A stretch of DNA of 64,000 nt, taken from a virus. The stretch is from the IMG/VR virus record IMGVR_UViG_3300025949_000023, positions 1-64,000 of that record. One strand, 5' to 3'. Below are positions 29,964-64,000 of this stretch, piece by piece. A program made the translations under genes and the position numbers. Under the pieces are notes generated by a model that was given only the letters and a program-made list of their open reading frames with translations, was not told the DNA's origin and did not search any database. How positions within the stretch are numbered: position 1 is the first letter of the stretch; each line of letters begins with the position of its first letter.

Positions 29964-31577
<1,614 letters not shown>

Positions 31578-36188: not shown

Positions 36189-36381
36189 GTACTTTAATTA
36201 AAGCCAGCACTTACGCGGCTGGCTTACGGTGTAGTATATTCTTCTCTGTCATTCATTGGCTCATACAACACTTCTATTGCCTTTGACGGAGCATGCGGTC
36301 TGCATAGTCTTGCATGCGTTGGTTTTTCGGCTCTTTGCAGCCTAACCGGCCCTGATTTGTCCGGCACCCTGTATAAGATTG

Positions 36382-36456
36382 CAGAACGTACGGGTGTCGA
36401 ACCCGTTTGAATGCTCCCGTGACAGGGGAGTGGCCTAACCGTTAGCCCAACGTTCC
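36382..36456 (-). tRNA. tRNA-Asp (GTC), CCA not encoded
   Basis: GGAACGT/ACGTTCT acceptor, GGCT/GGCC D stem, CTCCC-CTGTCAC-GGGAG anticodon arm, ACGGG-TTCGACA-CCCGT T arm, G discriminator. Confidence 0.9.
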
Positions 36457-51686: not shown

Positions 51687-52262
51687 TTACAGGGTGGTTA
51701 GGTACTTTTCGTAAAGCTGCACGGTAGAAAGATTTTCTTTCGGATTGACTGTAACCCACAACCCATTATTCAGGCTTGGGCACCAGCCATTAATATTTAG
51801 CCATTCCGCAAACCCTATTGCTATCTCCCTTACTTTATTGGGGGATGAAAATTGAGCGGCGTACTCTTCCATACACTTTTTTAGATACTTGGTTACCATT
51901 TCATTATCAAAAATCATAAACGCCTTAGAAAAATAATCATTCATGCCAGCTAACACCTCTTTGGGTATATACTTCAATATAACTTCTTCTGCGCTTTTCA
52001 CCTCTGCATTGCCCTTTGGCTCTGCATTGATTGTAGGTGTTACATTTAGCATTACTTTCTCTACAACAAACGTTTGCATGGTTTTATCACCAAGAACATT
52101 AAGCAGGTATCCAGTATGCTTTTTGTCGCTTTTAACAAATACCTCTGCATTAGCAGGGGCGGGTATAGGTGCATCCTTTATGATATTTACGCATTGTTCT
52201 ATTCTGCTAAGGCATATTCCCGAAACGGAATGCCCGCAGGTACATTTTGTAGCTATACTCAT
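51687..52262 (-). CDS. hypothetical mosaic protein
   Basis: CMEEYAAQF and AIGFAEWL motifs common in Bacteroidota phage small genes. Confidence 0.55.
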   Translation of the reverse strand: MSIATKCTCGHSVSGICLSRIEQCVNIIKDAPIPAPANAEVFVKSDKKHTGYLLNVLGDKTMQTFVVEKVMLNVTPTINAEPKGNAEVKSAEEVILKYIPKEVLAGMNDYFSKAFMIFDNEMVTKYLKKCMEEYAAQFSSPNKVREIAIGFAEWLNINGWCPSLNNGLWVTVNPKENLSTVQLYEKYLTTL

Positions 52263-52534
52263 TTTACTAATGTTATTTTATTGGTTAAAACTTCTTTCTT
52301 TACAATTTTTGTTTCAGATTGAACGGTCTGGGTTGTCTTTTGAATTGGCAAAAACAAATCAGTCGGGGCGCAATGGAGAGGGTTCCACCCATAAACATGA
52401 TATGTAAGCAGTTGTTTTGCAGCATCTATTAATTGTCGTTCACTATTTTGTTGAACATCATGCATAATATGTCTGCCATGTTTTTCTATTTGTTCTGTGC
52501 GCTCCTGCGCAATTAATTCAATACCTGTTTTCAT
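52259..52534 (-). CDS. conserved phage protein, possibly truncated
   Basis: MKTGIELIAQER.EQIEKHG family-like N-terminus. Confidence 0.55.
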   Translation of the reverse strand: MKTGIELIAQERTEQIEKHGRHIMHDVQQNSERQLIDAAKQLLTYHVYGWNPLHCAPTDLFLPIQKTTQTVQSETKIVKKEVLTNKITLVK

Positions 52535-52578
52535 AAAACTTTATTTTTTTTGATTAAATATTATTTTGTTAGCGCCCC

Positions 52579-52815
52579 CTATTGGGCATCTGTGGTTGTG
52601 CGATTTTGTTTAATTTCAATAACTGCCACGCCAAATAAAATAAAATACGCCAAGCAAACTGACAGTACTATATAGGCTTGCTTGTCTTTATGGTTTTGAA
52701 AAACGTATACTATTGTTTCGTACGTAACGTATAATGTATAAATAGTAACAGCGGCTATTGCAGAAAAAATTATGAGAACAAAAAGGGCATAAAAAAGAAA
52801 ATTTAAATACTTCAT
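52579..52815 (-). CDS. two-TM membrane protein
   Basis: Two hydrophobic segments. Confidence 0.55.
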   Translation of the reverse strand: MKYLNFLFYALFVLIIFSAIAAVTIYTLYVTYETIVYVFQNHKDKQAYIVLSVCLAYFILFGVAVIEIKQNRTTTDAQ

Positions 52816-52933
52816 TGATTTTTATTTAGTGGGTGTAGTGTGTATGTTGCCCATTACTCATTGCCCGGCTCCCTGAATATCATAACCAACACGGCTACTA
52901 ATATCAACCAGGCAATGAGCGTAGTCGTGGCCA

Positions 52934-53245
52934 TTACTTTTTCTCCTCCTTCTTAGCCAGCAGCAAGCCCGAATGACTCAGGTTATACGCCGTCTTTGTG
53001 TTACCATACTCACCGGCTAAGAAATACTTACACCGGGCCACTATCGCATCAACCTGCCTGTAAGTCATTACAACGCTGTTTTTAGCCTTCTCAATCAGTG
53101 CTGGCACCTTCGGGTAACCCTTATCCCCGCCAAGGCTTACAAGCGCCTCAAACTCCCCCAGCATAGCGCTAAACTCCTTATTACACAACTCACCTTGCCA
53201 CCTGGGCACCTTCGCAGTCTCTCCCGCTGTCTTTTGCTTTTCCAT
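52934..53245 (-). CDS. hypothetical protein
   Basis: ORF with an ATACACATG start variant. Confidence 0.55.
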   Translation of the reverse strand: MEKQKTAGETAKVPRWQGELCNKEFSAMLGEFEALVSLGGDKGYPKVPALIEKAKNSVVMTYRQVDAIVARCKYFLAGEYGNTKTAYNLSHSGLLLAKKEEKK

Positions 53246-53256
53246 GTGTATTTTTT

Positions 53257-53658
53257 TTAATTAGTTTTCTTCCCCTTTAAAGTCTTAAGCAACAATGTTC
53301 GCTGCCACGACTCTAAGTTATCAGCATTGGCTATCTCAATATGCAACTGCTCCTTCTCATAATCAAACTTAACCTTATCAATAGCATCCATAAACTCATT
53401 GTGGCTTTTCGCTGGTACCTTTTGAACTATTGACGAATAGCCATCATTACCGTCATTGTCCACTGAAGCTAAAAACTCCTGTGGTACCGGTATAGTCCTA
53501 TTAACCATAAACTCACTGCCAGCCACCCCAGGTTTATTATTCTTATAAAAAGCGGCAAGAAAATTCAAAGCCTTCTGCGCAGTGTCCGCCCCCAACTCCT
53601 TCAACTCCTCTAACAACTCCAACTCAAATCTTACCCCTATCGGATTCGTCTTTGCCAT
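53257..53658 (-). CDS. ribbon-helix-helix-like DNA-binding protein
   Basis: N-terminal PIGVRFELELLEELK beta-ribbon/helix pattern. Confidence 0.55.
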   Translation of the reverse strand: MAKTNPIGVRFELELLEELKELGADTAQKALNFLAAFYKNNKPGVAGSEFMVNRTIPVPQEFLASVDNDGNDGYSSIVQKVPAKSHNEFMDAIDKVKFDYEKEQLHIEIANADNLESWQRTLLLKTLKGKKTN

Positions 53659-53671
53659 ATATTTTTATTTA

Positions 53672-53787
53672 GTAGCTACAAATATATAGCGTAGCTACAT
53701 TGTGTCCAAATAATTGTCGCTACATTTTTAGACAAGTAGCTACTTTTTTTATTTACAATACAAACTTTATAGTATTCATGTAGCTAC
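53672..53787. repeat. five copies of the palindrome GTAGCTAC over a promoter
   Basis: 53672, 53691, 53716 (GTCGCTAC), 53736, 53780; TATATTTG at 53686-53679. Confidence 0.8.
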
Positions 53788-54383
53788 GGTTATCGAAACA
53801 GCAAGTAGGGTATATGAGGGTACTCTCCAACAGTAAGCACCTGTTTAGGCCGGCGCCTGGGTGGGGGTCAAAGTCGAAAGCTGGGCTACCGGGTGGGTCG
53901 CGATTTTTTATTCGCTTATAACCCTGCGCGTGTGTGCGTTCTCTTTGCTGCCGTTGCGGATGACTGTCTTGCTGCTGCCTTTGGATTGATTGTGGAGGCC
54001 ATCTTATAATATTTATTATGTTAACTGGCAACTTTGTCATGCTGTTTTTCAATGAGTTATGCAGCCTGTTTGCTTGCTTGTTATTTCGTTCAGCCTATCC
54101 CCTACCCTCTTGGTTTTACGCCTGATGTGCTGTTTTGAGCCGGTGTTGTGTTGTGCTAATCATCCTGCATGCAATCGCCTGGCCTATACCCTTGCAAAAA
54201 TATTTTAACGCAGTGTCAACGCCCTTGTTTGCCAAAATATGCCTGAAAACCAGTAAATTAGCACGGTGTATGAAATAAATAACAGGTGCTTAACCGTGTC
54301 AAACCCTTGTAAAAAGCCTAAAAAATGTTAGTTTGTTTGTTAATATCTAAATTTGTTGTCATAGCTTTTAAAACGGTTAAGAT

Positions 54384-54758
54384 ATGCGATTGATAAATGA
54401 CACAAACCGTCTAAGGTTGTTGGTTTTTAGGTTTTTAGAGCAGCAAGGAGAGGATTATTGCAGGCTTTACAGGTTTTCGCCTGAACGTATTACGGGCGAT
54501 TTGCGGGACTACTTCACCCATGTGGGTGTTTACACTCTTTATTCAAATGAGGTGCTTTACAGCTATATTGAGGCGCGTTTGAGGTATGTTTTTGATTTAG
54601 CCGCAGAATACAAGCAAACAAAGCGACGTTTGGGCCTTACAGAAGAAGATTTATCTAAGTTTTTTGGTTACGCGGACCGACCTTCGTTTGCCATCAGTAA
54701 CAAGAAAAACCAGCACATAACAGCTTTTTTAAGTATTGCGCGGGCTATTATGCCATAG
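54384..54758 (+). CDS. hypothetical protein with C-terminal HTH-like segment
   Basis: KRRLGLTEEDLSKFFGY. Confidence 0.5.
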   Translation: MRLINDTNRLRLLVFRFLEQQGEDYCRLYRFSPERITGDLRDYFTHVGVYTLYSNEVLYSYIEARLRYVFDLAAEYKQTKRRLGLTEEDLSKFFGYADRPSFAISNKKNQHITAFLSIARAIMP

Positions 54759-54907
54759 CTGCAATGTTGCAGTAACACACATGGATGTGTGATAATTGTA
54801 CGCTTTTAGCCAGTATTTTACCGATTATCCTTGATTTTGACCGCTTGTGTATCTTATTTGGTGGCGATAAGCTCATTAATGTATGTTTGTGTCCTAAATC
54901 AAAACAC

Positions 54908-55000
54908 ATGCACTACATAATCTTTTTAGCCGTTATCGCCATACCAATGTTTTTATTTGTTAACGCTCTTTATAATGAGGGTAAAAAAAATAATATATAG
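54908..55000 (+). CDS. 30-aa single-TM peptide
   Basis: AAACACATG start; MHYIIFLAVIAIPMFLFVNALY. Confidence 0.45.
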   Translation: MHYIIFLAVIAIPMFLFVNALYNEGKKNNI

Positions 55001-55056
55001 TTATGGTACCAGCAATAGCCACCATTATTACAATGGTTTTATTTTACCTGCAAACA

Positions 55057-55084
55057 AAACCCGCTAAAAGATAGCGGGTTTTTT
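55057..55084. terminator. bidirectional terminator
   Basis: AAAACCCGCTA-AAAGA-TAGCGGGTTTT between convergent genes. Confidence 0.75.
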
Positions 55085-55090
55085 GATGTT

Positions 55091-55411
55091 CTAAATTTTG
55101 TGGGTGTGCTGTAATATGCCATCATAAAACACGTTAATGGCTGTTAGTTGCCCGTTTTCCGTCCTCACTTCAAAGGAAACAAATTCACCCGGCAGCTTCT
55201 TTTTTTCAGGAAAATACACGTCATAAAGCAGCATTTCCGCTTTATCATGTTCATGTGCATGTACGTATATCCTTATGTCCGTCCCTTCCGGTTCGTCCAG
55301 CCGGATGCCGTGTGTAAATGCCTGTATACCATTTTCTTCCAGCGTTGTGATAACCTTGTTAATTGTTTGGCGGTCGCCATTTTCTTTGTAAACCTGCATT
55401 AATGTTGTCAT
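55091..55411 (-). CDS. hypothetical protein
   Basis: Likely start MTTLMQ; LEENGIQAF..IYVH pattern. Confidence 0.55.
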   Translation of the reverse strand: MTTLMQVYKENGDRQTINKVITTLEENGIQAFTHGIRLDEPEGTDIRIYVHAHEHDKAEMLLYDVYFPEKKKLPGEFVSFEVRTENGQLTAINVFYDGILQHTHKI

Positions 55412-55574
55412 ATGTTTGATTTTAGGCAAAGTAAATGATGTGGTTTGTCATTTCCTTACGGTTTCCCGTAAGCCAGGTAAATTACCGTCCATACCCGTTT
55501 TTTTACCGCTTGTACCATAAAGTTGGTAGTTGCTTTTGTGTGCATGTACATTTGACCTATCAAACACACATGAT

Positions 55575-55820
55575 ATGAAAAAGATAACAGTTATGGAGCA
55601 GGTTACCGCTATTGTTAAGCATTGCCAACGTAACGGTGTTAAAATACAATGCTTTAGCGAATTTAACGGCATTGTGTCCGCTGTACCGGTTGGCGAGCCA
55701 AATAGCCGCTATACTTTGTTTTCTATTATGAGCATCACAGAGCACGGCGATTGCCACGCCGATTATCTGCGCAATGCTTGGGGACGCAGTTCTTCGTACT
55801 CTCACTCTTATTCTAATTAA
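55575..55820 (+). CDS. hypothetical early protein
   Basis: TACATTTG box just upstream; start MKKITV. Confidence 0.55.
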   Translation: MKKITVMEQVTAIVKHCQRNGVKIQCFSEFNGIVSAVPVGEPNSRYTLFSIMSITEHGDCHADYLRNAWGRSSSYSHSYSN

Positions 55821-55841
55821 CCACCACAAACACACAAACAC

Positions 55842-56036
55842 ATGCAAACAACCTATATCTTAACCAACGCAGCCGGCAATCTTTATTTAGCTGATGAATT
55901 AAATATGCTTTGGTGGCATGAAACAGACTATGCCTGTAAGCATTTCGATAATGAGGCGCAGATTGATACATTCCTTATGCGTGAGGATGTTAAAGCCTTT
56001 TTAGACGGCGAATTTGTACGCATGAAGCAATTTTAA
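55842..56036 (+). CDS. hypothetical early protein
   Basis: AAACACATG start. Confidence 0.6.
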   Translation: MQTTYILTNAAGNLYLADELNMLWWHETDYACKHFDNEAQIDTFLMREDVKAFLDGEFVRMKQF

Positions 56037-56068
56037 ACCACATTCCTAACTATTTAATAATTAAACAC

Positions 56069-56275
56069 ATGGCTTACACAAATCCTGTTACCGGTCAACG
56101 CGCTTCAACTGGTACGCTAAACGCATGGTTACGCACTGAAAAAGAATTTTTGGCTGATTATATAGCCATCGAAATGCACAAACAAGGCCTATTGAGCGAA
56201 GAAGCAAGCAACCGCCTTTCTTCGCTTGCCGGGCCCATTGCACAAATTATTAACGACTGGACACACGAAGGTTAA
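56069..56275 (+). CDS. hypothetical early protein
   Basis: AAACACATG start; stop codon lies in hammerhead stem I. Confidence 0.6.
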   Translation: MAYTNPVTGQRASTGTLNAWLRTEKEFLADYIAIEMHKQGLLSEEASNRLSSLAGPIAQIINDWTHEG

Positions 56276-56322
56276 CTGACGAGCTTTAAATAAGCGAAAC
56301 GGGCGCCTTGCCCGTCTTAACC
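56270..56322 (+). ncRNA. hammerhead ribozyme, type I
   Basis: GGTTAA-CTGACGA-GCTT-TAAAT-AAGC-GAAA-CGGGC-GCCTT-GCCCG-TC-TTAACC: intact core, three perfect stems, GUC cleavage triplet. Confidence 0.92.
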
Positions 56323-56337
56323 AACAAACTATAACAC

Positions 56338-56574
56338 ATGAACTGGAAAGAATTAAAAGAGAAGTTTGACAACTTACGCCGCAATACGGGCCTTTTTCAT
56401 GGTTTAGACCTGCATGCCGGTGATGCACGCCTTGGGCGTGTTGCCTCAACCGTTATGTATGGGGAGCGCGGCACAATGGCTGTAATTAGCGGATATTATT
56501 CTTACAAAGAGCTATCCGCATACTTTGACGGATACCAAGCGGCCATGCAGTCAATTTTAACCGAAAAAGTATAA
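56338..56574 (+). CDS. hypothetical early protein
   Basis: TAACACATG start 21 nt after the ribozyme cleavage site. Confidence 0.6.
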   Translation: MNWKELKEKFDNLRRNTGLFHGLDLHAGDARLGRVASTVMYGERGTMAVISGYYSYKELSAYFDGYQAAMQSILTEKV

Positions 56575-56584
56575 TACTAAAGCC

Positions 56585-56908
56585 ATGGTACAACCTTATT
56601 CAGTCGAAGTACAAGCCACTAACACAATAAACACGCTAAAAGCGCTGTTTACAGGCGATAGGCTCGCCTTAGATTTATTGGCAGGCCAGTATATAGCAGG
56701 CGACGATAAACGCGCATTAAGGCAGGAAATATGCCGCCAGATAACTGGCGAACGCCGCCCACAGGGTAAATGCACGGTACTGGCTGTTTCAGACGTTTTA
56801 CACGCCTCTTTCCACCAGTACAGCCTATTTGCACAACCGGCACCTGTTGAGCGCGTTACGCAGCCTGTAATTAACTCCCGCGCATGGTTTGAGTTTTTGG
56901 CGAAATAG
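56585..56908 (+). CDS. hypothetical early protein
   Basis: Co-oriented ORF in the early cluster. Confidence 0.55.
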   Translation: MVQPYSVEVQATNTINTLKALFTGDRLALDLLAGQYIAGDDKRALRQEICRQITGERRPQGKCTVLAVSDVLHASFHQYSLFAQPAPVERVTQPVINSRAWFEFLAK

Positions 56909-56916
56909 TTTCGCTA

Positions 56917-56960
56917 TGCGTTGCGGTATAACCGTTGCATTTGATTGCACCAACGCACTA
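56917..56960 (+). ncRNA. mini tRNA-like three-way junction
   Basis: TGCGTTG/CAACGCA 7-bp stem, CGGT/ACCG hairpin, TGCA-TTTGAT-TGCA hairpin, then CTA. Confidence 0.55.
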
Positions 56961-57013
56961 TATACCCCTAATGTTTGGGGGAATTATTAAACAACCACAT
57001 AAAAACTATAAAA

Positions 57014-57658
57014 ATGAACACTTACGCAAAGTACTGCCCAAATGTATTTGTTGCCAAATGTGCAGAAAAGCACGAAAAAGGCGAAATAATAACCCTTACT
57101 ACTCAATACGGCAAAGAACACGATTGCATTGTATTTAATTTGGTAGCCACTGGCAAAGACGGTTTTTATTATTATTCAATCGTTCGCGCTGATGGCTACA
57201 ATTTACAGGAACGCGCTAAAGCTAAGGCAGAACGTTACAACCAATGGGCTGCAAGTGCAGAAAACAAAAGCAACCAGTATTATGAAGCAAGCAAAGAAGG
57301 CGCTGATTTTTTAGCTTTAGGCGAACCCATTAAAGTAGGCCACCACAGCGAAGGCAGGCACAGGGCTTTAATACAAAGGAATTGGGACAGGATGGGCAAG
57401 AGTGTTGAAATGGCAGACAAAGCAGAACAACACGAAAGCAAAGCCGAATATTGGCAGCGCAGGGCAAACGATATTAATTTATCTATGCCTGAAAGTTTAG
57501 AGTATTACGAATATAAACTACAATTAGCACAGGAAAGACATACGGGGCTTAAAAATGGCACAATACACCGTGAACATAGTTTCTCCCTTACCTATGCTAA
57601 CAAAGAAGTAAAAGAGCTTACAGATAAGCTAAATACAGCTAAAAAACTTTGGGCTTAA
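57014..57658 (+). CDS. DUF3560-domain protein
   Basis: LGEPIKVGHHSEGRHR signature. Confidence 0.85.
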   Translation: MNTYAKYCPNVFVAKCAEKHEKGEIITLTTQYGKEHDCIVFNLVATGKDGFYYYSIVRADGYNLQERAKAKAERYNQWAASAENKSNQYYEASKEGADFLALGEPIKVGHHSEGRHRALIQRNWDRMGKSVEMADKAEQHESKAEYWQRRANDINLSMPESLEYYEYKLQLAQERHTGLKNGTIHREHSFSLTYANKEVKELTDKLNTAKKLWA

Positions 57659-57667
57659 CTCCCCCTT

Positions 57668-57716
57668 ACCCTGCAACGGTTTAGCCGTGGCCGTTCAATC
57701 GGGCGGCAGGGTGCTA
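57668..57716 (+). ncRNA. mini tRNA-like three-way junction
   Basis: ACCCTGC/GCAGGGT 7-bp stem, ACGG/CCGT hairpin, CCG-TTCAAT-CGG hairpin, then GCTA. Confidence 0.55.
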
Positions 57717-58024
57717 AAACATCATGGGCCAGGGGCAAGAATAAGCATTGGGCTTTGGTTGCGACGCTCCCGTGTACGCCTGGTAACAGTATGCAGCAGT
57801 TGCTTTTGAATAACAATTAAGCACCTGGTTAAATACTTTACAATAACATAAATACGGAATAAGTGCTTTTTGCAGTCTTTTCAATGGTTTCAGGCTTTTT
57901 TAGTACACCACCAATGTACTAACGGGGCAATATACAGCACCTGAAGGGCAAATAATTGGTACATTATAACCGTGTTATTAAAATGATTTACACTTTTATT
58001 GTATAACTTTAAAGCCTAAATTAT

Positions 58025-58501
58025 ATGGAAATGCCTAAAAGAGTTTACTTTGAAACAACCGAAACCATAACAAAACACAGCAAGGGGTATATTGAAATTG
58101 ACACGGATTTTACCCAGGTGTATGATTGCTTTAGCAAGGTTTCGCTGCGTTTTAAGTCTGTTACCAGCATGAAATTAATGTTTTGGCTGTTATCGCATGA
58201 GGCCAACCAGGCTAACGGGATTAACAGCGGGGCCGCTGTACATGAGCGCTTTTGTAAGTTTCTTAAAGAAGAAGGTTATGAAGAGGTGCCAATGAGAACA
58301 TTTAAAGCCGCTTTTGAAGAGCTGTATAAAACAGAAGTGTTAACCAGGGTAGGCCGTGGGCAATACTATTTCAATCCGCATGTGTTTTGGCGCAACGATA
58401 AAAACGAGCGCATAAACTTTATTATTGACGAGGCAAAGGAAAAGAAATTCCTTTCACACAATCCGCTTAATGAAACTAAATCTTTAAACAATAAACCATA
58501 A
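58025..58501 (+). CDS. RepL-like winged-helix protein
   Basis: FTQVY N-terminal motif; AFEELYKTEVL..GRGQYYFNPHVFWR. Confidence 0.65.
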   Translation: MEMPKRVYFETTETITKHSKGYIEIDTDFTQVYDCFSKVSLRFKSVTSMKLMFWLLSHEANQANGINSGAAVHERFCKFLKEEGYEEVPMRTFKAAFEELYKTEVLTRVGRGQYYFNPHVFWRNDKNERINFIIDEAKEKKFLSHNPLNETKSLNNKP

Positions 58502-58506
58502 AACAC

Positions 58507-59115
58507 ATGAAATTCATTATTTCAGAACACACGCTATATGATAGCGAACAGGAAATGTATTTTACTAAAATCGGCGAAGATTGCAAAGCCGGTGCGCTGC
58601 GTTTTACTGTTTGGGGGAAAACTGCAGAACAATCCCGCATATTTGCGGAAAACCTTGTTACTAAGTTTGAGGCGTATAATGCACTGGCAGCGGTGCCGGA
58701 AGTGTCTAACTTTGTGACGACCGCAAACGTAGCTACCCGCTCCGGCCAGGTTTACATCGAATTGCCAGACGTTGAAGCTGTTCCACCCTTTGTAATGGTA
58801 AACAATACCGTGTATGTGCCTAAACAGGACACAGTAGCCACAAATTTGGCAGATAATGCAGAAGTAAGCCAAACCACTGCAAGTAACAATGAGTCAAAAA
58901 ACAATGCATTACAGGCGCTGTTAGACAAGGCTATGTTTTTGCAGCAAAAGAATGACTTTCTTCAAAGAATGTGTGAACAACTGGCCGAAGGGCTTGAAAC
59001 TCTTGTTTCAGAAGCTGACAGGCCACCCAGCGAACAAAACAAAAGGCTTGATGCCCTTTTTGCAGCTTTCAGTAAAGCACATTCATTAGTTAAGGCTTAC
59101 AAACTATCAAAATAA
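58507..59115 (+). CDS. hypothetical protein
   Basis: AAACACATG start; C-terminal coiled coil. Confidence 0.6.
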   Translation: MKFIISEHTLYDSEQEMYFTKIGEDCKAGALRFTVWGKTAEQSRIFAENLVTKFEAYNALAAVPEVSNFVTTANVATRSGQVYIELPDVEAVPPFVMVNNTVYVPKQDTVATNLADNAEVSQTTASNNESKNNALQALLDKAMFLQQKNDFLQRMCEQLAEGLETLVSEADRPPSEQNKRLDALFAAFSKAHSLVKAYKLSK

Positions 59116-59132
59116 TCATTCAAACCAATACA

Positions 59133-59591
59133 ATGAAAAACAAACTACAAGTTTTAAAAAACTGCGTTGTAGACTTAATAGAAGATTGTTTAATAAATCT
59201 TGACACAGACAAATATACGCAGGATGAAAAAATTCTTATCCTTGCACATGGGGAGTTGTATCAACACGAGCTTGCAAAGCTTGCACACAAATACATCTCT
59301 GAATATTGCCCAGCCCCAAAGCCAGAGGCTTTAATGAAATTCCGCCTGTTGCAACATTTAACAAACAGGTTTTATACCCACCCTTATAAACGGCAAACAT
59401 TCACCGAGGCAAAGAAGTTTATTGAGGCCCACGGCAAACGTAAAGTAAACGGCAATGTGGTTGAAAGCAAATACACCATGTGGGTTAAAAAAGAAAGCTG
59501 CGTACACTTTCACATGAAAGATAGCACGGTTGCAGCTGTTACGGATAACAAACACTTTGCCGGGGTGTTAGCAAATTTCGTAAACTCTTAA
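59133..59591 (+). CDS. hypothetical protein
   Basis: Co-oriented ORF. Confidence 0.6.
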   Translation: MKNKLQVLKNCVVDLIEDCLINLDTDKYTQDEKILILAHGELYQHELAKLAHKYISEYCPAPKPEALMKFRLLQHLTNRFYTHPYKRQTFTEAKKFIEAHGKRKVNGNVVESKYTMWVKKESCVHFHMKDSTVAAVTDNKHFAGVLANFVNS

Positions 59592-59594
59592 TTT

Positions 59595-59897
59595 ATGGAG
59601 TACATAGAAATAGAAGCGAACCTTTTAATATTAGCCAGTACGGAGAATGTTTTTCACAACCGAAAGAGCCGGGTGGAGAGCATTACGGGTTTCCATACCA
59701 ACTATATGGATAGTTGGGAATTGGTAGGCGATTGTGGAGACGTATACAGGCTTATCGCAATGGCTAATTTTGAAAGTATTGCAGAATTAAAGCAAGTCAT
59801 TAAAAAGGCTGAAAAATATAACTGGATATTTTGGAACGACAGCTATTTGTTACAAGATGGCACAGAGATTTACAGTGAAGGAAAATGGCTTATTTAG
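59595..59897 (+). CDS. hypothetical protein
   Basis: Co-oriented ORF. Confidence 0.55.
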   Translation: MEYIEIEANLLILASTENVFHNRKSRVESITGFHTNYMDSWELVGDCGDVYRLIAMANFESIAELKQVIKKAEKYNWIFWNDSYLLQDGTEIYSEGKWLI

Positions 59898-59947
59898 CAA
59901 CATTTGTACAGTAAACGTATTTTTATCAATCTTTAAATAAAAAACAC

Positions 59948-60210
59948 ATGACAGAACTACTTTTTATGATTGGCAACATCATGCCGGAGGATGAAATTGT
60001 TAATAGCATAACATCCGCTGCTTTGGAATATCAAACAGGCAGCAAGGAAGAAGCAAGGAAGAAGCAAGGAAGAAGTTGTCAATGTACTGCATGCTTTTTC
60101 TAACCAAAGAAGCTAACAAAGGCAAATCACCAGAGGAATTATTCAAAGAGGCCACAAAACTTAACCGCGCACAAGATATTCTTAAGCGCATGGAAGGTGA
60201 AAAACAGTAA
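59948..60210 (+). pseudogene. 83-aa gene frameshifted by an extra 11-bp repeat unit
   Basis: AAACACATG start; (AGCAAGGAAGA)x3 at 60041-60073; removing one unit restores an ORF to TAA at 60210. Confidence 0.7.
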
Positions 60211-60395
60211 AAAACGCTTTAACCGAAACTTTAAGCCCGTCCTATGTGATGGGCTTTTTTATGCCTGCATCCTATGGCCGGGTGCCTCCGGCGCAATCGG
60301 TTTTTGAAATCCCGCTACGCCAAGCGGGAATAGAAAAACCCCACATGAATATGCGGGGTTTACTCCAAATGAAGAACTGCTATATGAGACAAAGT

Positions 60396-60653
60396 TTATT
60401 TTCCTCCAAACAAATCCGGTTGTTTTGTTTCTGCTGCAGGTGCTGGTGTTTCTTCCTGCCACCATTCAAATGTTATGGTGCGCGTTACGCCGCCCGTAGT
60501 TACTTCGTCCTCCCAAAACATTAGGGTGGCCCGGCGCCCATCTATAAGCGTTACCCCAAGGCTTTCATTGGGTGTATAAATAAACCCGAATAAAGTGTAA
60601 AGCCAAGGTTCTTTCCGGCAGGTGAAAACTGTTTTAATTATTGGCTGTGTCAT
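60396..60653 (-). CDS. hypothetical protein
   Basis: Coupled to the upstream ORF; ends QPDLF. Confidence 0.55.
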   Translation of the reverse strand: MTQPIIKTVFTCRKEPWLYTLFGFIYTPNESLGVTLIDGRRATLMFWEDEVTTGGVTRTITFEWWQEETPAPAAETKQPDLFGGK

Positions 60654-60895
60654 TATTCTTTAATTGGTGTTACGGCTGTTTCAATATTGTGTATAGTCAT
60701 TGCATTGGCCACAATTGCATAAAAAGCTTCTATTTTGTACTCTGCAAATGTATTAAAGTCAAGTACCATGGTGTCCGATGGCTCCCAAGCCTCGCCAGTT
60801 GCCTTAAACATAGTCTTTTTAACATCCATGAAAAATGCCTTTAACTCGTCCTGTGGTACATTTTTAATAGTTATGCTTATAGTTGCTGTTTCCAT
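60653..60895 (-). CDS. hypothetical protein
   Basis: TAATG stop-start coupling. Confidence 0.55.
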   Translation of the reverse strand: METATISITIKNVPQDELKAFFMDVKKTMFKATGEAWEPSDTMVLDFNTFAEYKIEAFYAIVANAMTIHNIETAVTPIKE

Positions 60896-61098
60896 TACTC
60901 ACCCCCTCCCAATGGCAGTTCTGTTTGTTGCTTTCTGTTATACCTGCGTTTACCCTGGGCGTCCTGCAATGCCTCTGTTTTGGCTTCTATATACCCATTT
61001 AGGGTATATAGCAAGGCCGTTTGCTCATTAGTCGAGAGGTCGTCGCTGTCTTTTAAAAGGGCTTTAAACTCAGCCCGAATTGTCTCCGCTGATTTCAT
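60895..61098 (-). CDS. hypothetical protein
   Basis: AAACACATG start. Confidence 0.55.
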   Translation of the reverse strand: MKSAETIRAEFKALLKDSDDLSTNEQTALLYTLNGYIEAKTEALQDAQGKRRYNRKQQTELPLGGGE

Positions 61099-61104
61099 GT
61101 GTTT

Positions 61105-61548
61105 TTATTTTAAGTTGATTGGTAATTCCTTACCCGTTAAACCAAAGTATAGGTTTTGTAATTCATGCAAATACTTTGGATGATATGCAAAATGCAAGAA
61201 TTTATAAACTCCATCATCAACAGGCGTTTTTAACTGAATGAGGCTGCACTTATCGTATTGGCCATCACAAAATGCCAAACTTGTATTCCCTGTGCCCAAT
61301 TCTCTAAAATAATATACCCGGCTGTCCGTATATCCTTTAGTATAATAACCTGCATCATGCGTTTCTGTAAAAACTTTCTTTTCAAACCCGCACTTCTCTA
61401 ATATTTCGGGCGTTAATGGTATTGGCTCAGGTACATACCCCTCAAACCTCATTAATACAGCATGGAACATTTTTAAGTCCATGTGGATGTATTGGTTATT
61501 TATTAGCACCCAGTTACCTATCCTTAGCTCGTTATTTGGTATTTGCAT
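61105..61548 (-). CDS. conserved Bacteroidota phage protein
   Basis: NELRIGN, PIPLTPEILEKCGF, YLHELQNLYFGLTGKEL. Confidence 0.75.
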   Translation of the reverse strand: MQIPNNELRIGNWVLINNQYIHMDLKMFHAVLMRFEGYVPEPIPLTPEILEKCGFEKKVFTETHDAGYYTKGYTDSRVYYFRELGTGNTSLAFCDGQYDKCSLIQLKTPVDDGVYKFLHFAYHPKYLHELQNLYFGLTGKELPINLK

Positions 61549-61571
61549 GTGTTTGAAAGTTTTATGATTGA

Positions 61572-62072
61572 TTAAAATGGTTCGTTCTGCAATATCCCTA
61601 CGCCCTGTTTGCCGTACCTAAACACTTCCGGTTGCTCAAAGGCCTCCATCAGCTCAAAGTGCAGTGCCATTAACTGGTATTTGTGAGTAACCCCTTTTTT
61701 ATCCTTCCGCTGTATCGGCGGTTTATAGTTAACAAAGCACTTAGCCTCCATTTCTTTTGTCATGGGCTCAATTTTAACCAGGTTAAACAGTCCCAGCGTA
61801 TACCCGTTAAGGTTTTTGGTTTTATCGTCCTTCAATACTTTTGGGATATTCATAAGGCACTCACCGCCTGAAATAGAAACTAATTCAAACCCGTCATAAG
61901 GTTTTTTAGTGCTGTATAGAACGTATTTACCCAGAGGGAACGAAGGTTTTTTGCCTACGCGGCACCAGCGGGTTTCTATCTTGCCATGCAGCATAAGGCT
62001 TGCAAATGGCTGGTATAAACCCAGTGTGCGTATTATTTCTTTTGTTGGCGCCAAATCGAACAATGTGCTCAT
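61572..62072 (-). CDS. ASCH-like domain protein
   Basis: LGLYQPFASLMLHGKIETR and C-terminal GKQG. Confidence 0.7.
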   Translation of the reverse strand: MSTLFDLAPTKEIIRTLGLYQPFASLMLHGKIETRWCRVGKKPSFPLGKYVLYSTKKPYDGFELVSISGGECLMNIPKVLKDDKTKNLNGYTLGLFNLVKIEPMTKEMEAKCFVNYKPPIQRKDKKGVTHKYQLMALHFELMEAFEQPEVFRYGKQGVGILQNEPF

Positions 62073-62076
62073 ATAG

Positions 62077-62244
62077 TTAATTTAAACAATGAAAGGTTGC
62101 CATTCTGGTATGCACCAGGTATTGCTCCAGCCCCTTTACTACAAACATGCGGTGTATCTTCTCCATGCCTTCGCTTACTATCTGAGCGTGGGCATACAAC
62201 TTCTCTCCGTCGACGATTGCCATATAGTAGTTGGGGATTATCAT
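62077..62244 (-). CDS. 55-aa hypothetical protein (not in ORF track)
   Basis: MIIPNYYMAIVDGEK...FHCLN fills the gap. Confidence 0.5.
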   Translation of the reverse strand: MIIPNYYMAIVDGEKLYAHAQIVSEGMEKIHRMFVVKGLEQYLVHTRMATFHCLN

Positions 62245-62469
62245 TTAATCAAATTCGTATAATTCAATAATCTTGTCAAACATATCGTCTATGTAGTCAT
62301 ATATTCCCGCGCCCCGGCTTTTAAAATCTTCAACCGTCTTAAATATGCCTTGTGTTTGAAATATACCATGGCTACCGCTTTTTATTACAATGCAGCAATT
62401 TTCCATATTCACCTTATTGGAAGAGATTTCCTCGTTTAGATGTTCCATAAATTCATCAATAGCGTGCAT
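62245..62469 (-). CDS. hypothetical protein
   Basis: Packed ORF. Confidence 0.5.
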   Translation of the reverse strand: MHAIDEFMEHLNEEISSNKVNMENCCIVIKSGSHGIFQTQGIFKTVEDFKSRGAGIYDYIDDMFDKIIELYEFD

Positions 62470-62472
62470 ATA

Positions 62473-62688
62473 TCATGTGTTTTGTTGACTGTTTAAATAC
62501 TCGGTTATTACCGGGTTAACCATGTGCTTTGTGCCGCCCCGGCCAAACCTTGGGACGTACATAGGCACGCCTAACTCAACGGCAGCATCAATTATTCTTT
62601 TTTGGTGCTCAGTTAAGGTAACGGCTTTTTGTGCGCCACCCACTCCCTGTACACGCCAATGCTTTTCTATAAACTCACTTGGTTTCAT
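62473..62688 (-). CDS. hypothetical protein
   Basis: Packed ORF with ATGA overlap. Confidence 0.5.
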   Translation of the reverse strand: MKPSEFIEKHWRVQGVGGAQKAVTLTEHQKRIIDAAVELGVPMYVPRFGRGGTKHMVNPVITEYLNSQQNT

Positions 62689-62954
62689 AACCGCTCTCTC
62701 ATTTTTGTTGTATCACTCGTGGCGCCTGGCTCACCGTTCATTTCTGGTGGTATTCCCATTGCATCCCATGCCTCCGGTGTGCCAAACGGTACATGCCTTA
62801 CATGTATCTTCCCGTCCTGCCTGCGCTCTGTCTTTACGATACTGGTGCCGTAAAAAGCCAAATCCTCAACCATAGCCCGCTTTGTTGGGTTTATACGGCT
62901 AACGGCCTTCCAAAACCGCTGTTCCATGTGATACTTTCTTTCACGCTTTGTCAT
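62685..62954 (-). CDS. hypothetical protein
   Basis: Packed ORF. Confidence 0.5.
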   Translation of the reverse strand: MTKRERKYHMEQRFWKAVSRINPTKRAMVEDLAFYGTSIVKTERRQDGKIHVRHVPFGTPEAWDAMGIPPEMNGEPGATSDTTKMRERL

Positions 62955-63276
62955 TATTGCCTGTTTTTAGTTCATCAAGTGTTAATCTGGCCTCAAAATA
63001 GTTTATTACTTGATGATGTGTTTTTTGAGGCATGCCATAGCCGTCTGACACCCGAACATCATCTACTCTTTCGCCCATGCTGTTGTAGAGCGTTGCCCGC
63101 ATAATATCACGGTCATTATTATCTGGCCGGTATTCAAAATAATACCCTTCTGTAGATAAACTGTAACGCTTACCCCACGCCTGCATTTCGTCACCAAATA
63201 ATGATGTCGCCCACGCCTCAAACGATTTTAAATCTTTTATCATTATCTTACTCATTGTCCTCAATTTTAGGTGCAT
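62941..63276 (-). CDS. hypothetical protein
   Basis: Packed ORF; start may be the internal MSKIM. Confidence 0.5.
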   Translation of the reverse strand: MHLKLRTMSKIMIKDLKSFEAWATSLFGDEMQAWGKRYSLSTEGYYFEYRPDNNDRDIMRATLYNSMGERVDDVRVSDGYGMPQKTHHQVINYFEARLTLDELKTGNNDKA

Positions 63277-63646
63277 CCATCTTTAACTTGTTAAAATGTG
63301 CTTCAACGTCCTTTCCTTGCTCTGCAATGAGCGCGGGTAGTTCTTTTATTGGTGTTTCTACTATCTCAAATTCGGCGTCCTCGGTAACGTTGTGATTAAA
63401 CCCTGTTTCATCCGTAACAAGACTACCGTAAAACTTTGCAGCCTCGGCAACTTCTTTATAAAAATCTTCTTTTGACTTTTGCGGCCTGTTACTATACTCG
63501 GCCACAACCTCCCCCAGCGTAACAGTGGTTGAGCCGTCATTCTTCCTATACACCTGCACAACGTTATGTGTGCCACCTGGACCTTTAACCCTTCCTAAGT
63601 CTCCTTGAATGTAAGCGTCGTGTCCCAATAAATATTTTTCTGCCAT
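63248..63646 (-). CDS. hypothetical protein
   Basis: Packed ORF. Confidence 0.5.
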   Translation of the reverse strand: MAEKYLLGHDAYIQGDLGRVKGPGGTHNVVQVYRKNDGSTTVTLGEVVAEYSNRPQKSKEDFYKEVAEAAKFYGSLVTDETGFNHNVTEDAEFEIVETPIKELPALIAEQGKDVEAHFNKLKMDAPKIEDNE

Positions 63647-63656
63647 AAAAGTGTGT

Positions 63657-64000
63657 TTATTGTTCAGTTAATGAGTCAAGTACAGTAAAAACAATGTCCT
63701 GCAGGTTTTCTAAATCTTTATGCATTAGCCTTATTAATGGCATGCCGTTCTTTGCCGCGTATTCATCTTTAATCCTGTCATGCTCTTTTACCACTTCAAA
63801 ATCCTTGCTGTAACTGGTAACACCAAAATGGTGGGCACCATCATATTCAATCAGTACGTTTTCTTTAACCAGGTAAAAATCATACCTCAGCATATTCCCC
63901 TTGCTATTTACGCAGCCACCAAATATTTTTTCAGTCTTATACTCAATTTTATGCAAGTTTAAGAAAGTCGTTATCATAGTTTCACCATAACTTTCTATCT
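63657..64000 (-). CDS. PD-(D/E)xK/Vsr-like endonuclease, 5' end outside the window
   Basis: ESYGE upstream in frame, LRYDFYL, LIEYDGAHHF, DRIKDEYA. Confidence 0.75.
   Translation of the reverse strand, partial: IESYGETMITTFLNLHKIEYKTEKIFGGCVNSKGNMLRYDFYLVKENVLIEYDGAHHFGVTSYSKDFEVVKEHDRIKDEYAAKNGMPLIRLMHKDLENLQDIVFTVLDSLTEQ

What the first reader, a model, noticed from the sequence alone, without database searches (positions are those of the whole stretch)
56270..56322. Complete hammerhead ribozyme overlapping a stop codon
Seen: stem I GGTTAA/TTAACC, CTGACGA, stem II GCTT/AAGC, GAAA, stem III CGGGC/GCCCG and a GTC triplet, predicting cleavage after C56316. The 5' strand of stem I contains the TAA of ORF 56069-56275. 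The 3' product would start 21 nt before the next ATG. Inference: a ribosome terminating at that stop would unfold stem I, so cleavage could be coupled to upstream translation.
Basis: partly seen in the sequence, partly recalled or inferred. Interest (0 to 1): 0.8.

Follow-up and report, generated by a model that had tools for sequence, protein, structure and literature searches.

The report
Phage hammerhead ribozyme between two genes
A small self-cutting RNA (a hammerhead ribozyme) sits in the gap between two tiny genes of a 72-kb phage, and it belongs to a large phage family of such ribozymes that almost always sit directly on the stop codon of the gene in front, so it is real but of a known kind.

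Summary
The motif is there exactly as described (56270-56322, +). It has a complete type I hammerhead core and three helices, with cleavage predicted after C56316. The TAA of ORF 56069-56275 lies in stem I, and the next ATG is 21 nt after the cut. It is not chance. My descriptor finds one hit in the 72-kb phage; 300 random genomes gave one loose hit and none as good. A covariance model built from 32 hammerheads of other viral contigs scores it 73.6 bits (E 3.6e-14). Those relatives share its stem I (GGUUAA/UUAACC), loop II pattern and flanking A's, while stems II and III covary strongly. Rfam's Hammerhead_1 gives only 16.2 bits (gathering score 34) and also misses all 25 relatives tested. In 139 of 165 type I phage hammerheads examined, the upstream ORF's stop lies within 3 nt of the ribozyme or inside it. 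So the stop-codon overlap is family architecture, not a peculiarity of this locus. Most likely it is a self-cleaving processing site inside an operon of a phage whose host probably belongs to Bacteroidota. Translation-coupled cleavage is geometrically sound but untested. Hammerheads flanking phage genes have been known since 2011, so this is a new member of a known kind.

The parts
56270..56322 (+). complete type I hammerhead ribozyme motif (53 nt)
56270..56275 (+). stem I 5' strand GGUUAA; holds the stop codon TAA 56273-56275 of the upstream ORF
   Evidence: same stem I in 32 hammerheads from 18 other viral contigs
56276..56282 (+). core box C3-U4-G5-A6-C7-G8-A9 (CUGACGA)
   Evidence: invariant apart from N7 in alignment A1
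56283..56295 (+). stem II, 4 bp (GCUU/AAGC, G10.1-C11.1 closing) with loop UAAAU, which fits the family pattern U-N-A-N-U
56296..56298 (+). core G12-A13-A14
56299..56315 (+). stem III hairpin: A15.1-U16.1 plus CGGGC/GCCCG (a further G-U pair is possible), loop GCCUU
56316..56317 (+). predicted scissile bond: after C17 (56316). The 3' product starts at U56317 with a 5'-OH
   Evidence: inferred from hammerhead chemistry (established) and the motif register; not shown experimentally
56317..56322 (+). stem I 3' strand UUAACC
56269..56269 (+). conserved unpaired A just 5' of stem I (35 of 36 family members)
56323..56324 (+). conserved unpaired AA just 3' of stem I (35 and 31 of 36)
56317..56337 (+). 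21-nt G-free leader left on the downstream mRNA after cleavage (UUAACCAACAAACUAUAACAC)
56069..56275 (+). upstream ORF, 68 aa, orphan, last codons GGT-TAA inside stem I
   Evidence: codon score +14.6
56338..56574 (+). downstream ORF, 78 aa, no known family
55842..60210 (+). run of about ten closely packed + strand genes (likely one operon); the hammerhead lies after the second
   Evidence: codon-usage scoring of ORFs; operon status inferred

Best explanation
This is a genuine type I hammerhead ribozyme transcribed as part of a + strand phage operon (about 55842-60210). It belongs to a large, mostly phage-borne subfamily with a fixed stem I (GGUUAA/UUAACC), a 4-bp stem II capped by U-N-A-N-U, and unpaired A's flanking stem I. 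Once 56270-56322 is transcribed, the RNA folds into the three-way junction and cuts itself after C56316. The upstream mRNA keeps its stop codon and ends in the compact ribozyme body with a 2',3'-cyclic phosphate. The short A/U-rich stem I then melts and releases the downstream mRNA. That mRNA carries a 5'-OH and an unstructured, G-free 21-nt leader in front of ATG 56338. The effect is to uncouple the fate (stability, translation) of genes 1-2 from that of genes 3-10, as a natural insulator. The stop codon inside stem I reflects the family's standard packing (stop codon, ribozyme, about 20-nt leader, ATG). Terminating ribosomes would only transiently delay folding. Shown here: the motif, its statistical significance, family membership, covariation, and the conserved gene context. 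Inferred: transcription, cleavage in vivo, and the consequences for the two mRNAs.
For: All core nucleotides and the three helices are present. There is one site in 72 kb, and none as good in 300 random genomes. R1, built from 32 sequences of 18 other contigs, scores the window 73.6 bits, E 3.6e-14. Of 138 raw matches to a pattern that constrains only core letters, 126 form all three helices. On 75 distinct R1 hits, 99.1% of cells pair against 66.7% in shuffles and 29-38% with slid partners. 14 of 16 pairs change on both sides, in 349 compensatory cells (0 of 500 shuffles reach that). The window copy has every family-specific unpaired residue. Context: 112 of 165 have an ATG-ORF starting 10-40 nt after the cut, against 17% at random positions, and 139 of 165 have the upstream stop within 3 nt or inside, against 21%. 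Only 1 of 25 scored genes of this phage has an SD-like word upstream, and 6 of 9 prokaryote-genome matches to the subfamily pattern are labelled Bacteroidota. Published passages: hammerheads flank single genes in prophages, cleave in vitro and in E. coli, and were proposed to cut long phage transcripts into gene-length mRNAs (PMC3088659). PMC6765202 and PMC6155905 say the same.
Against: There is no direct evidence of transcription or cleavage. No orthologous locus was found, so conservation at this exact junction is untested. Rfam Hammerhead_1 scores it below the gathering score (16.2 against 34). Stem I is only 6 bp and open. The tertiary stem I/loop II contact needed for speed at cellular Mg2+ is suggested only by conserved unpaired residues, and no covariation was seen. 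The phage has a single copy, whereas many relatives carry 2-8, so why this junction needs processing is unexplained. Alignment A2 was fitted to the model, which inflates pairing counts somewhat.
Confidence: 0.65

Rival explanations
1. Translation-gated ribozyme. The upstream stop codon sits in stem I, so every terminating ribosome melts stem I and the core. Cleavage, or release of the 3' product and prevention of re-ligation, therefore depends on how heavily ORF 56069-56275 is translated. That would tie downstream expression to upstream translation.
For: The geometry is correct. Docking of the stop on the ribozyme is family-wide: 139 of 165 against 21% at random positions. Among same-stem-I members whose upstream frame reaches stem I, the TAA frame is used in 12 of 19 (one-sided binomial p 0.007 against 1/3). 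These copies are related, so the p value is optimistic. The stops are not pushed 12 or more nt away, as would be expected if ribosome interference were harmful (inference).
Against: Compaction alone predicts abutting or overlapping stops. In 69 of 133 other type I members the stop lies wholly upstream, and in 14 the ORF reads deep into the ribozyme, so no single register is required. Cleavage is irreversible once the product leaves, and termination is brief, so ribosomes can only delay it. GGUUAACUGA carries stops in two of three frames, so ORFs running into it would end there without any selection for coupling.
Confidence: 0.15
2. Translation-initiation device. The main role is to create a free, unstructured 5' end 21 nt before ATG 56338, so that ribosomes of a host that does not use Shine-Dalgarno pairing can load on the third gene. 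Uncleaved RNA would initiate poorly because the folded ribozyme ends 15 nt before the ATG.
For: Only 1 of 25 genes has an SD-like word; starts have an AAACAC-ATG context. The leader has no G. Family 3' flanks are A-rich and an ATG follows at a median of 23.5 nt. Type I hammerheads just upstream of ORFs in fungal and plant RNA viruses were reported to serve translation (PMC13725137, abstract and passages). The halovirus HHphage lies 13 nt before a start codon (PMC3088659).
Against: Other genes in the same operon start without a ribozyme, at gaps of 3-32 nt. Some family members do have GGAG upstream of their ATG. The ATG region is not sequestered in the uncleaved fold.
Confidence: 0.12
3. Inactive relic or chance look-alike with no present function.
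For: Rfam score below gathering; single copy; orphan flanking genes.
Against: No core position deviates. E 3.6e-14 with an independent model. 0 of 300 random genomes give as good a hit. All family-specific unpaired residues are kept.
Confidence: 0.05
4. The GC-rich stem III hairpin is a transcription terminator: on the - strand (56317 to 56297, followed by a T-rich tail), or a pause or stability hairpin on the + strand. The hammerhead resemblance would then be incidental.
For: The pattern scan flags a terminator-like site on the - strand.
Against: By codon scoring, no - strand gene lies upstream of it within the + operon. On the + strand the hairpin is followed by UCUUAACC, not a U run. This reading does not explain the core boxes, stems I and II, or the R1 match.
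Confidence: 0.03

Closest known systems
Type I hammerhead ribozymes encoded in bacterial and bacteriophage DNA (Perreault et al. 2011, PMC3088659, passages read; de la Pena review PMC6155905, passages read)
   Same: Same catalytic core and three-helix junction. Intergenic position between small, non-conserved phage ORFs. Often several per genome flanking single genes. Proposed role is processing of polycistronic phage RNA.
   Different: This copy is single in its genome. It belongs to a subfamily with a fixed stem I GGUUAA/UUAACC and loop II U-N-A-N-U. I did not see that subfamily named in the passages I read; the supplementary alignments, which I could not open, may contain it. Docking of the stop codon on stem I is not mentioned in PMC3088659 ('stop codon' occurs 0 times).
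Rfam RF00163 Hammerhead_1
   Same: Best Rfam match. Full-length alignment (model positions 1-45) with core boxes and even the AAAUA of loop II matching.
   Different: 16.2 bits against a gathering score of 34. The model also reports none of the 25 descriptor-defined hammerheads in 8 related loci at gathering. Standard Rfam annotation therefore does not see this subfamily.
HHphage of haloviruses HF1/HF2 (PMC3088659)
   Same: A hammerhead in an early-gene region a few nucleotides (13) upstream of a start codon. A mapped 5' end near the cleavage site suggests activity in vivo.
   Different: HHphage has an atypical core insertion and needs high salt. It sits at the head of a transcript in an archaeal virus. 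The window's core is canonical.
Type I hammerheads in UTRs and intergenic regions of chrysovirids and fusarivirids (PMC13725137, abstract and passages)
   Same: Type I topology, long helix III, the ribozyme fills a short intergenic region, and the cut lies a few nt before the next ORF. A role in translation is claimed.
   Different: Those are RNA viruses of eukaryotes, where a cap-independent mechanism is at stake. [quoted passage not shown]
Synthetic ribozyme insulators such as RiboJ
   Same: A self-cleaving hammerhead placed upstream of a cistron to standardise its 5' end and decouple it from upstream sequence.
   Different: Engineered from a type III satellite-RNA hammerhead and leaves a hairpin on the downstream RNA. 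Here only 6 nt of stem I stay on the downstream mRNA.

Membership tests
Hammerhead ribozyme (class) | 5' core box C3-U4-G5-A6-N7-G8-A9 | tested here: met
   CTGACGA at 56276-56282. The numbering convention is recalled.
Hammerhead ribozyme (class) | G12-A13-A14 followed by the A15.1-U16.1 pair | tested here: met
   GAA 56296-98; A56299 pairs with U56315
Hammerhead ribozyme (class) | Cleavage-site nucleotide H17 (not G) after U16.1 | tested here: met
   G56314-U56315-C56316
Hammerhead ribozyme (class) | Three helices around the core, with G10.1-C11.1 closing helix II | tested here: met
   The MFE fold equals the junction. Descriptor: stem I 6 bp, II 4 bp, III 7 bp.
Hammerhead ribozyme (class) | Helices supported by covariation in relatives | tested here: met
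   Family level only: 14 of 16 pairs change on both sides, 99.1% paired, slid controls 29-38%. No orthologous locus was available.
Hammerhead ribozyme (class) | Tertiary contact between helix I and loop II (needed for fast cleavage at cellular Mg2+) | tested here: inconclusive
   Conserved unpaired residues: loop II U1 36/36, A3 32/36, U5 35/36; A(-1) 35/36; A(+1) 35/36; A(+2) 31/36. No convincing loop-flank covariation.
Hammerhead ribozyme (class) | Mg2+-dependent self-cleavage giving 2',3'-cyclic phosphate and 5'-OH ends | not testable with these tools
   No RNA data were available.
Type I topology | Helix I open-ended, helices II and III closed by loops | tested here: met
Rfam RF00163 Hammerhead_1 as curated | Score at or above the gathering score (34 bits) | tested here: not met
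   16.2 bits; no match at gathering. The same holds for 25 relatives in 8 loci. I therefore file it as a hammerhead by motif and by model R1, not as an Rfam RF00163 hit.
GGUUAA-stem-I phage subfamily (defined here, model R1) | Stem I GGUUAA/UUAACC, 4-bp stem II with U-N-A-N-U loop, A before and AA after stem I | tested here: met
   73.6 bits, E 3.6e-14 with the window left out of the model; residues checked
GGUUAA-stem-I phage subfamily (defined here, model R1) | Context: same-strand ORF ending at or in the ribozyme, and an ATG about 20-30 nt after the cut | tested here: met
   Window: stop in stem I, ATG at +21. Subfamily: 24 of 27 identifiable upstream ORFs (5 further members have none) have their stop codon overlapping stem I (15), in the core TGA (4), further inside the ribozyme (1) or ending within 3 nt before stem I (4). 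Median cut-to-ATG distance is 23.5 nt.

The most novel reading that the evidence does not exclude
Phage type I hammerheads are ribosome-docked ribozymes. The family is built so that the upstream gene's stop codon lies on or in stem I (139 of 165 here). Each terminating ribosome then melts the ribozyme. This would either hold back cleavage while the upstream gene is heavily translated, or strip off the 3' product and make cleavage irreversible. Operon processing would then read out upstream translation. In genomes with several copies, the identical stem I would in addition let any cut 5' end pair with any ribozyme body, for re-ligation or circularisation.
Probability: 0.15. Interest if true: 0.7.

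Novelty: new member of a known kind. Interest (0 to 1): 0.38.

Why it matters
What hammerheads do in phage and bacterial DNA is still described as an open question in the reviews I read (PMC6765202; PMC6155905). This locus adds a clean, canonical example in a complete 72-kb phage genome. The comparison it prompted has two practical results. First, a well-defined subfamily that occurs in viral contigs and in Bacteroidota-labelled genomes is invisible to Rfam at its gathering score, so routine annotation misses it. Second, these ribozymes have a stereotyped placement (stop codon, ribozyme, about 20-nt A-rich leader, ATG). That gives a concrete, testable handle on whether translation and self-cleavage interact.

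Tried and rejected
- **Orthologous loci.** None was found. Searches used: megablast and blastn of the region against GenBank phages; tblastn of both flanking proteins; the search for related loci with the two flanking proteins and the portal in viral contigs; the 78-aa protein in metagenome contigs; and a 3-sequence alignment of the 78-aa family in viral contigs. The 68-aa protein has no relative but itself. The 78-aa protein has 5 weak or partial relatives.
- **Named relatives.** Megablast of a four-copy relative (L097) against GenBank phages found nothing.
- **RNA evidence.** No RNA holder was listed by the look-up of sequencing runs.
- **Papers.** Jimenez et al. 2011 (PMC3048661) is not held.
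- **Pseudoknot test.** Mutual information between loop II and the flanks of stem I gave no convincing covarying pair.
- **Terminator reading.** The - strand terminator reading of stem III was rejected, because no - strand gene lies there.
- **Other ribozymes.** An Rfam E-value scan of the whole window showed no second ribozyme-like match at E up to 1.
- **Literature on the stop-codon docking.** Four searches (listings and abstract starts only, plus the passages named above) showed no paper on hammerhead and stop-codon docking in phages. This is not proof that none exists.

Full report
**1. Observation**

The window is the first 64 kb of a 72,043-bp IMG/VR virus record that CheckV rates complete. 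At 56270-56322 on the + strand the sequence reads:
- GGTTAA, then CTGACGA;
- GCTT-TAAAT-AAGC;
- GAA;
- A-CGGGC-GCCTT-GCCCG-T;
- C, then TTAACC.

In hammerhead numbering (recalled) this is helix I, C3-A9, helix II closed by G10.1-C11.1, G12-A14, helix III opening with A15.1-U16.1, C17, and the return strand of helix I. Helix I is open-ended, so the topology is type I. Cleavage would fall after C56316.

ORF 56069-56275 ends with TAA at 56273-56275, inside the 5' strand of helix I. The next ATG (56338, ORF 56338-56574) lies 21 nt after the predicted cut.

**2. More than chance**

- The minimum-free-energy fold of 56262-56330 is exactly the three-way junction (-17.3 kcal/mol, z -2.95, 0 of 200 shuffles as stable).
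- In a 251-nt context the MFE keeps all three helices. The centroid keeps helices II and III.
- A descriptor I wrote (core boxes plus perfect helices I >= 4, II >= 3, III >= 3 bp) finds one site in the 72-kb record, which is this one. In 300 first-order Markov random genomes it found one loose hit and none as good.
- Rfam is less kind. Nothing reaches gathering in the window. On a 301-nt slice Hammerhead_1 (RF00163) gives a full-length alignment but only 16.2 bits against a gathering score of 34, E 0.4.

**3. Relatives**

*No orthologous locus.* The two flanking proteins are orphans. The 68-aa protein finds only itself among 5.8 billion clusters. The 78-aa protein has five weak or partial relatives. 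Searches for the same locus in GenBank phages, IMG/VR and metagenomes found nothing.

*A family found by pattern.* I searched for the ribozyme itself. Of the 138 raw matches in those loci, 126 also form all three helices, although the pattern does not ask for them. The descriptor found further copies nearby, giving 165 distinct type I hammerheads with the window's included.

*A subfamily with the window's stem I.* Thirty-three of the 165, from 19 records (the window and 18 other contigs), have the window's stem I, GGTTAA/TTAACC. They often occur at 2-4 per contig, and their stems II and III differ and covary.

*Family-specific residues.* Thirty-six distinct members, counting six more from metagenomes, show:
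- loop II U-N-A-N-U (U 36/36, A 32/36, U 35/36);
- an unpaired A before stem I (35/36);
- AA after stem I (35/36 and 31/36).

The window copy has all of them. The six metagenome copies share stems I and II with the window but have unrelated flanks. The ribozyme is therefore a module found in many gene contexts.

**4. Membership test**

I built covariance model R1 from 32 subfamily sequences of other contigs, with the window left out.
- It scores 56267-56325 at 73.6 bits, E 3.6e-14. This is the only hit in the window and in the whole record.
- Over the window plus 99 loci it finds 79 hits at E <= 1e-3.
- On their alignment (75 distinct rows), 99.1% of cells form standard pairs, against 66.7% in shuffles and 29-38% when partners are slid by 1-3 columns.
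- Fourteen of 16 pairs change on both sides, in 349 compensatory cells. None of 500 shuffles reaches that.

One caveat applies. The alignment was fitted to the model, and the sequences were ascertained by a core pattern. The 126-of-138 figure is the less circular measure.

Rfam at gathering reports none of the 25 descriptor-defined hammerheads in 8 of these loci. The low Rfam score therefore reflects that model's coverage, not a defect of this copy.

**5. Genomic setting**

- Codon-usage scoring of ORFs gives a run of + strand genes from 55842 to about 60210. The hammerhead lies after the second gene.
- The gaps between neighbouring genes are 32 nt before the upstream ORF, 62 nt at the junction (filled by the 53-nt ribozyme), and 10 nt after the downstream ORF.
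- A strong, bidirectional-looking terminator hairpin at 55056-55082 and a - strand gene at 55091-55429 precede the run.
- The only TAnnTTTG words on the + strand between 55080 and 56340 lie at 55411 and 55547. I recall this as the Bacteroidota -7 consensus, so a promoter there is a guess.
- Only 1 of 25 scored genes has a 4-nt Shine-Dalgarno-like word upstream. Many starts read AAACAC-ATG.
- A scan of prokaryote genomes for the subfamily pattern gave 9 stretches. Six are labelled Bacteroidota: Paraflavitalea chromosome, Niabella, Agriterribacter, Pedobacter and two contigs of one Bacteroidetes MAG (Pedobacter's phylum is recalled). The other three are short MAG contigs with other labels.
- A Bacteroidota host is therefore likely, though not shown.

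**6. The stop-codon overlap in the family**

Subfamily members with exactly the 6-bp GGTTAA stem I (32, window included):

| Position of the upstream ORF's stop | Members |
|---|---|
| TAA of stem I | 12 (9 contigs) |
| TAG overlapping the first G of stem I | 3 |
| TGA of CUGA | 4 |
| Further inside the ribozyme | 3 |
| Wholly upstream (gaps 0, 2, 2, 3 and 134 nt) | 5 |
| No upstream ORF of 40 or more codons identified | 5 |

The other 133 type I copies:

| Position of the upstream ORF's stop | Members |
|---|---|
| Wholly upstream | 69 (54 with a gap of 0-3 nt) |
| In stem I | 26 |
| Core TGA | 22 |
| Further inside | 14 |
| None identified | 2 |

Comparison with 8,250 random same-strand positions in the same loci:

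| Feature | Hammerheads | Random positions |
|---|---|---|
| Upstream stop ending within 3 nt before the element or inside it | 139 of 165 | 21% |
| ATG-ORF starting 10-40 nt after the cut | 112 of 165 | 17% |
| Both | 93 of 165 | 3.8% |

The arrangement stop codon, ribozyme, short A-rich leader, ATG is therefore a family trait. The window is a textbook case of it.

**7. How it most likely works**

*Shown.* A canonical, family-typical hammerhead lies in sense orientation between two same-strand ORFs.

*Established chemistry.* Such RNAs cut after position 17 and leave a 2',3'-cyclic phosphate and a 5'-OH.

*Inferred.*
- The operon transcript cuts itself at 56316/56317.
- Because the topology is type I, the whole ribozyme body (41 nt after the stop codon) stays on the upstream mRNA. 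That mRNA keeps its stop and gains a structured 3' end.
- The downstream mRNA keeps only UUAACC of stem I. It begins with a 21-nt leader that contains no G.
- A 6-bp stem with four A-U pairs should release the product readily.
- The result is two mRNAs with independent stability and translation.

This is the role proposed for prophage hammerheads by Perreault et al. (PMC3088659, passages). They showed cleavage of tandem prophage hammerheads in vitro and in E. coli. Two reviews repeat the proposal as an open question (PMC6765202; PMC6155905). I give this reading 0.65.

**8. The coupling idea**

A ribosome with the TAA in its A site covers roughly a dozen nucleotides downstream (recalled, not tested). 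That span is stem I's 5' strand, the CUGACGA box and the start of stem II. The ribozyme cannot be folded at that moment.

The family-wide docking of stops shows that such collisions are normal and are not selected against. Among same-stem-I copies whose frame reaches stem I, the TAA frame is used in 12 of 19 (p 0.007 against one third). Related copies make this p value optimistic.

Three points weigh against a dedicated switch:
- Phage genes are packed tightly anyway.
- GGUUAACUGA carries stops in two of three frames, so any ORF running into the module ends there without selection for coupling.
- The register is not fixed across the family, and some ORFs read well into the ribozyme.

If translation matters, the expected sign is delay of cleavage, or ribosome-driven release of the 3' product, not triggering. 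I give it 0.15.

A third reading is that the cut mainly creates a free leader for initiation in a host without Shine-Dalgarno pairing. It is suggested by the G-free leader, and by the recent report on RNA viruses (PMC13725137). However, neighbouring genes initiate without a ribozyme. I give it 0.12.

**9. Comparison and novelty**

Type I hammerheads in bacterial and phage DNA, often flanking small non-conserved ORFs, are in print. This is a new member of a known kind.

Two things may be new. One is the delineation of the GGUUAA subfamily, which Rfam's gathering score misses. The other is the quantified docking on stop codons. Four literature searches (listings and abstract starts) and the passages read showed neither.

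**10. Verdict**

The ribozyme call is strongly supported by independent homologs and covariation. The translation-coupling interpretation is possible but unsupported beyond geometry and family-wide placement. Interest is moderate (0.38): a solid example of a known element, with a testable architectural regularity attached.

Noticed in passing
window 36381-36456 (-): tRNA-Asp (anticodon GTC). ARAGORN finds it and so does Rfam in E-value mode at 47.1 bits, above its gathering score of 29. The gathering-mode scan of the whole window reported nothing, so that mode's filters missed a valid tRNA.
   Followed up: partly
window 56186-56235 (+): Strong hairpin inside the upstream ORF, 35 nt before the ribozyme (-24.5 kcal/mol for 56180-56242, z -2.88, 1 of 200 shuffles as stable). 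Together with the ribozyme body it would make the 3' end of the cut upstream mRNA highly structured. Its function is unknown.
   Followed up: partly
L097, L052, L062, L088 (GGTTAA copies); L107 and L126 (8 copies each); L029, L075, L117 (5 each): In multi-copy contigs all copies share one stem I and loop II type, while stem III varies. They flank single small ORFs at spacings of about 270-440 nt in L097. Every excised RNA would begin with the strand that pairs with the ribozyme at its own 3' end, which is the geometry needed for re-ligation or circularisation. Perreault et al. looked for spliced or circular products and detected none.
   Followed up: no
L052, L097, L088, L062, L044, L124, L098, L011: Rfam at gathering reports none of the 25 hammerheads that the descriptor finds in these loci. 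The only hit is a DUF805b RNA at L062 250-282 (-).
   Followed up: partly
window 29964-31559 (-): Phage-encoded GroEL-like chaperonin (phrog_5725, E 8e-130). Homologs at 31-36% identity occur in seven hammerhead-bearing contigs (L088, L080, L090, L110, L044, L121, L011). This hints that these phages form a loose lineage. The best GenBank phage hits are about 40% identical.
   Followed up: partly
window 55056-55082: 11-bp hairpin with an A run before it and a T run after it, terminator-like in both directions. It lies between a + strand ORF ending at 55000 and a - strand gene at 55091-55429.
   Followed up: no
window 56338-56574 (+), protein P0002: The central part (residues 20-55) of the 78-aa protein downstream of the ribozyme matches about 30 repeated stretches in a 5,690-aa protein of the representative library (E 3.9e-50). 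The small phage protein looks like a single unit of a repeat found in giant proteins.
   Followed up: no
window 52000-64000, gene starts: Start codons are preceded by A-rich, G-poor sequence, often AAACAC-ATG. Only 1 of 25 genes has an SD-like word. This fits a host that does not use Shine-Dalgarno pairing.
   Followed up: partly
L143 (Paraflavitalea speifideaquila chromosome), L142 (Niabella MAG), L138 (Agriterribacter MAG): Copies of the same subfamily lie in large Bacteroidota contigs, presumably in prophages. Whether they sit in prophages was not checked.
   Followed up: no
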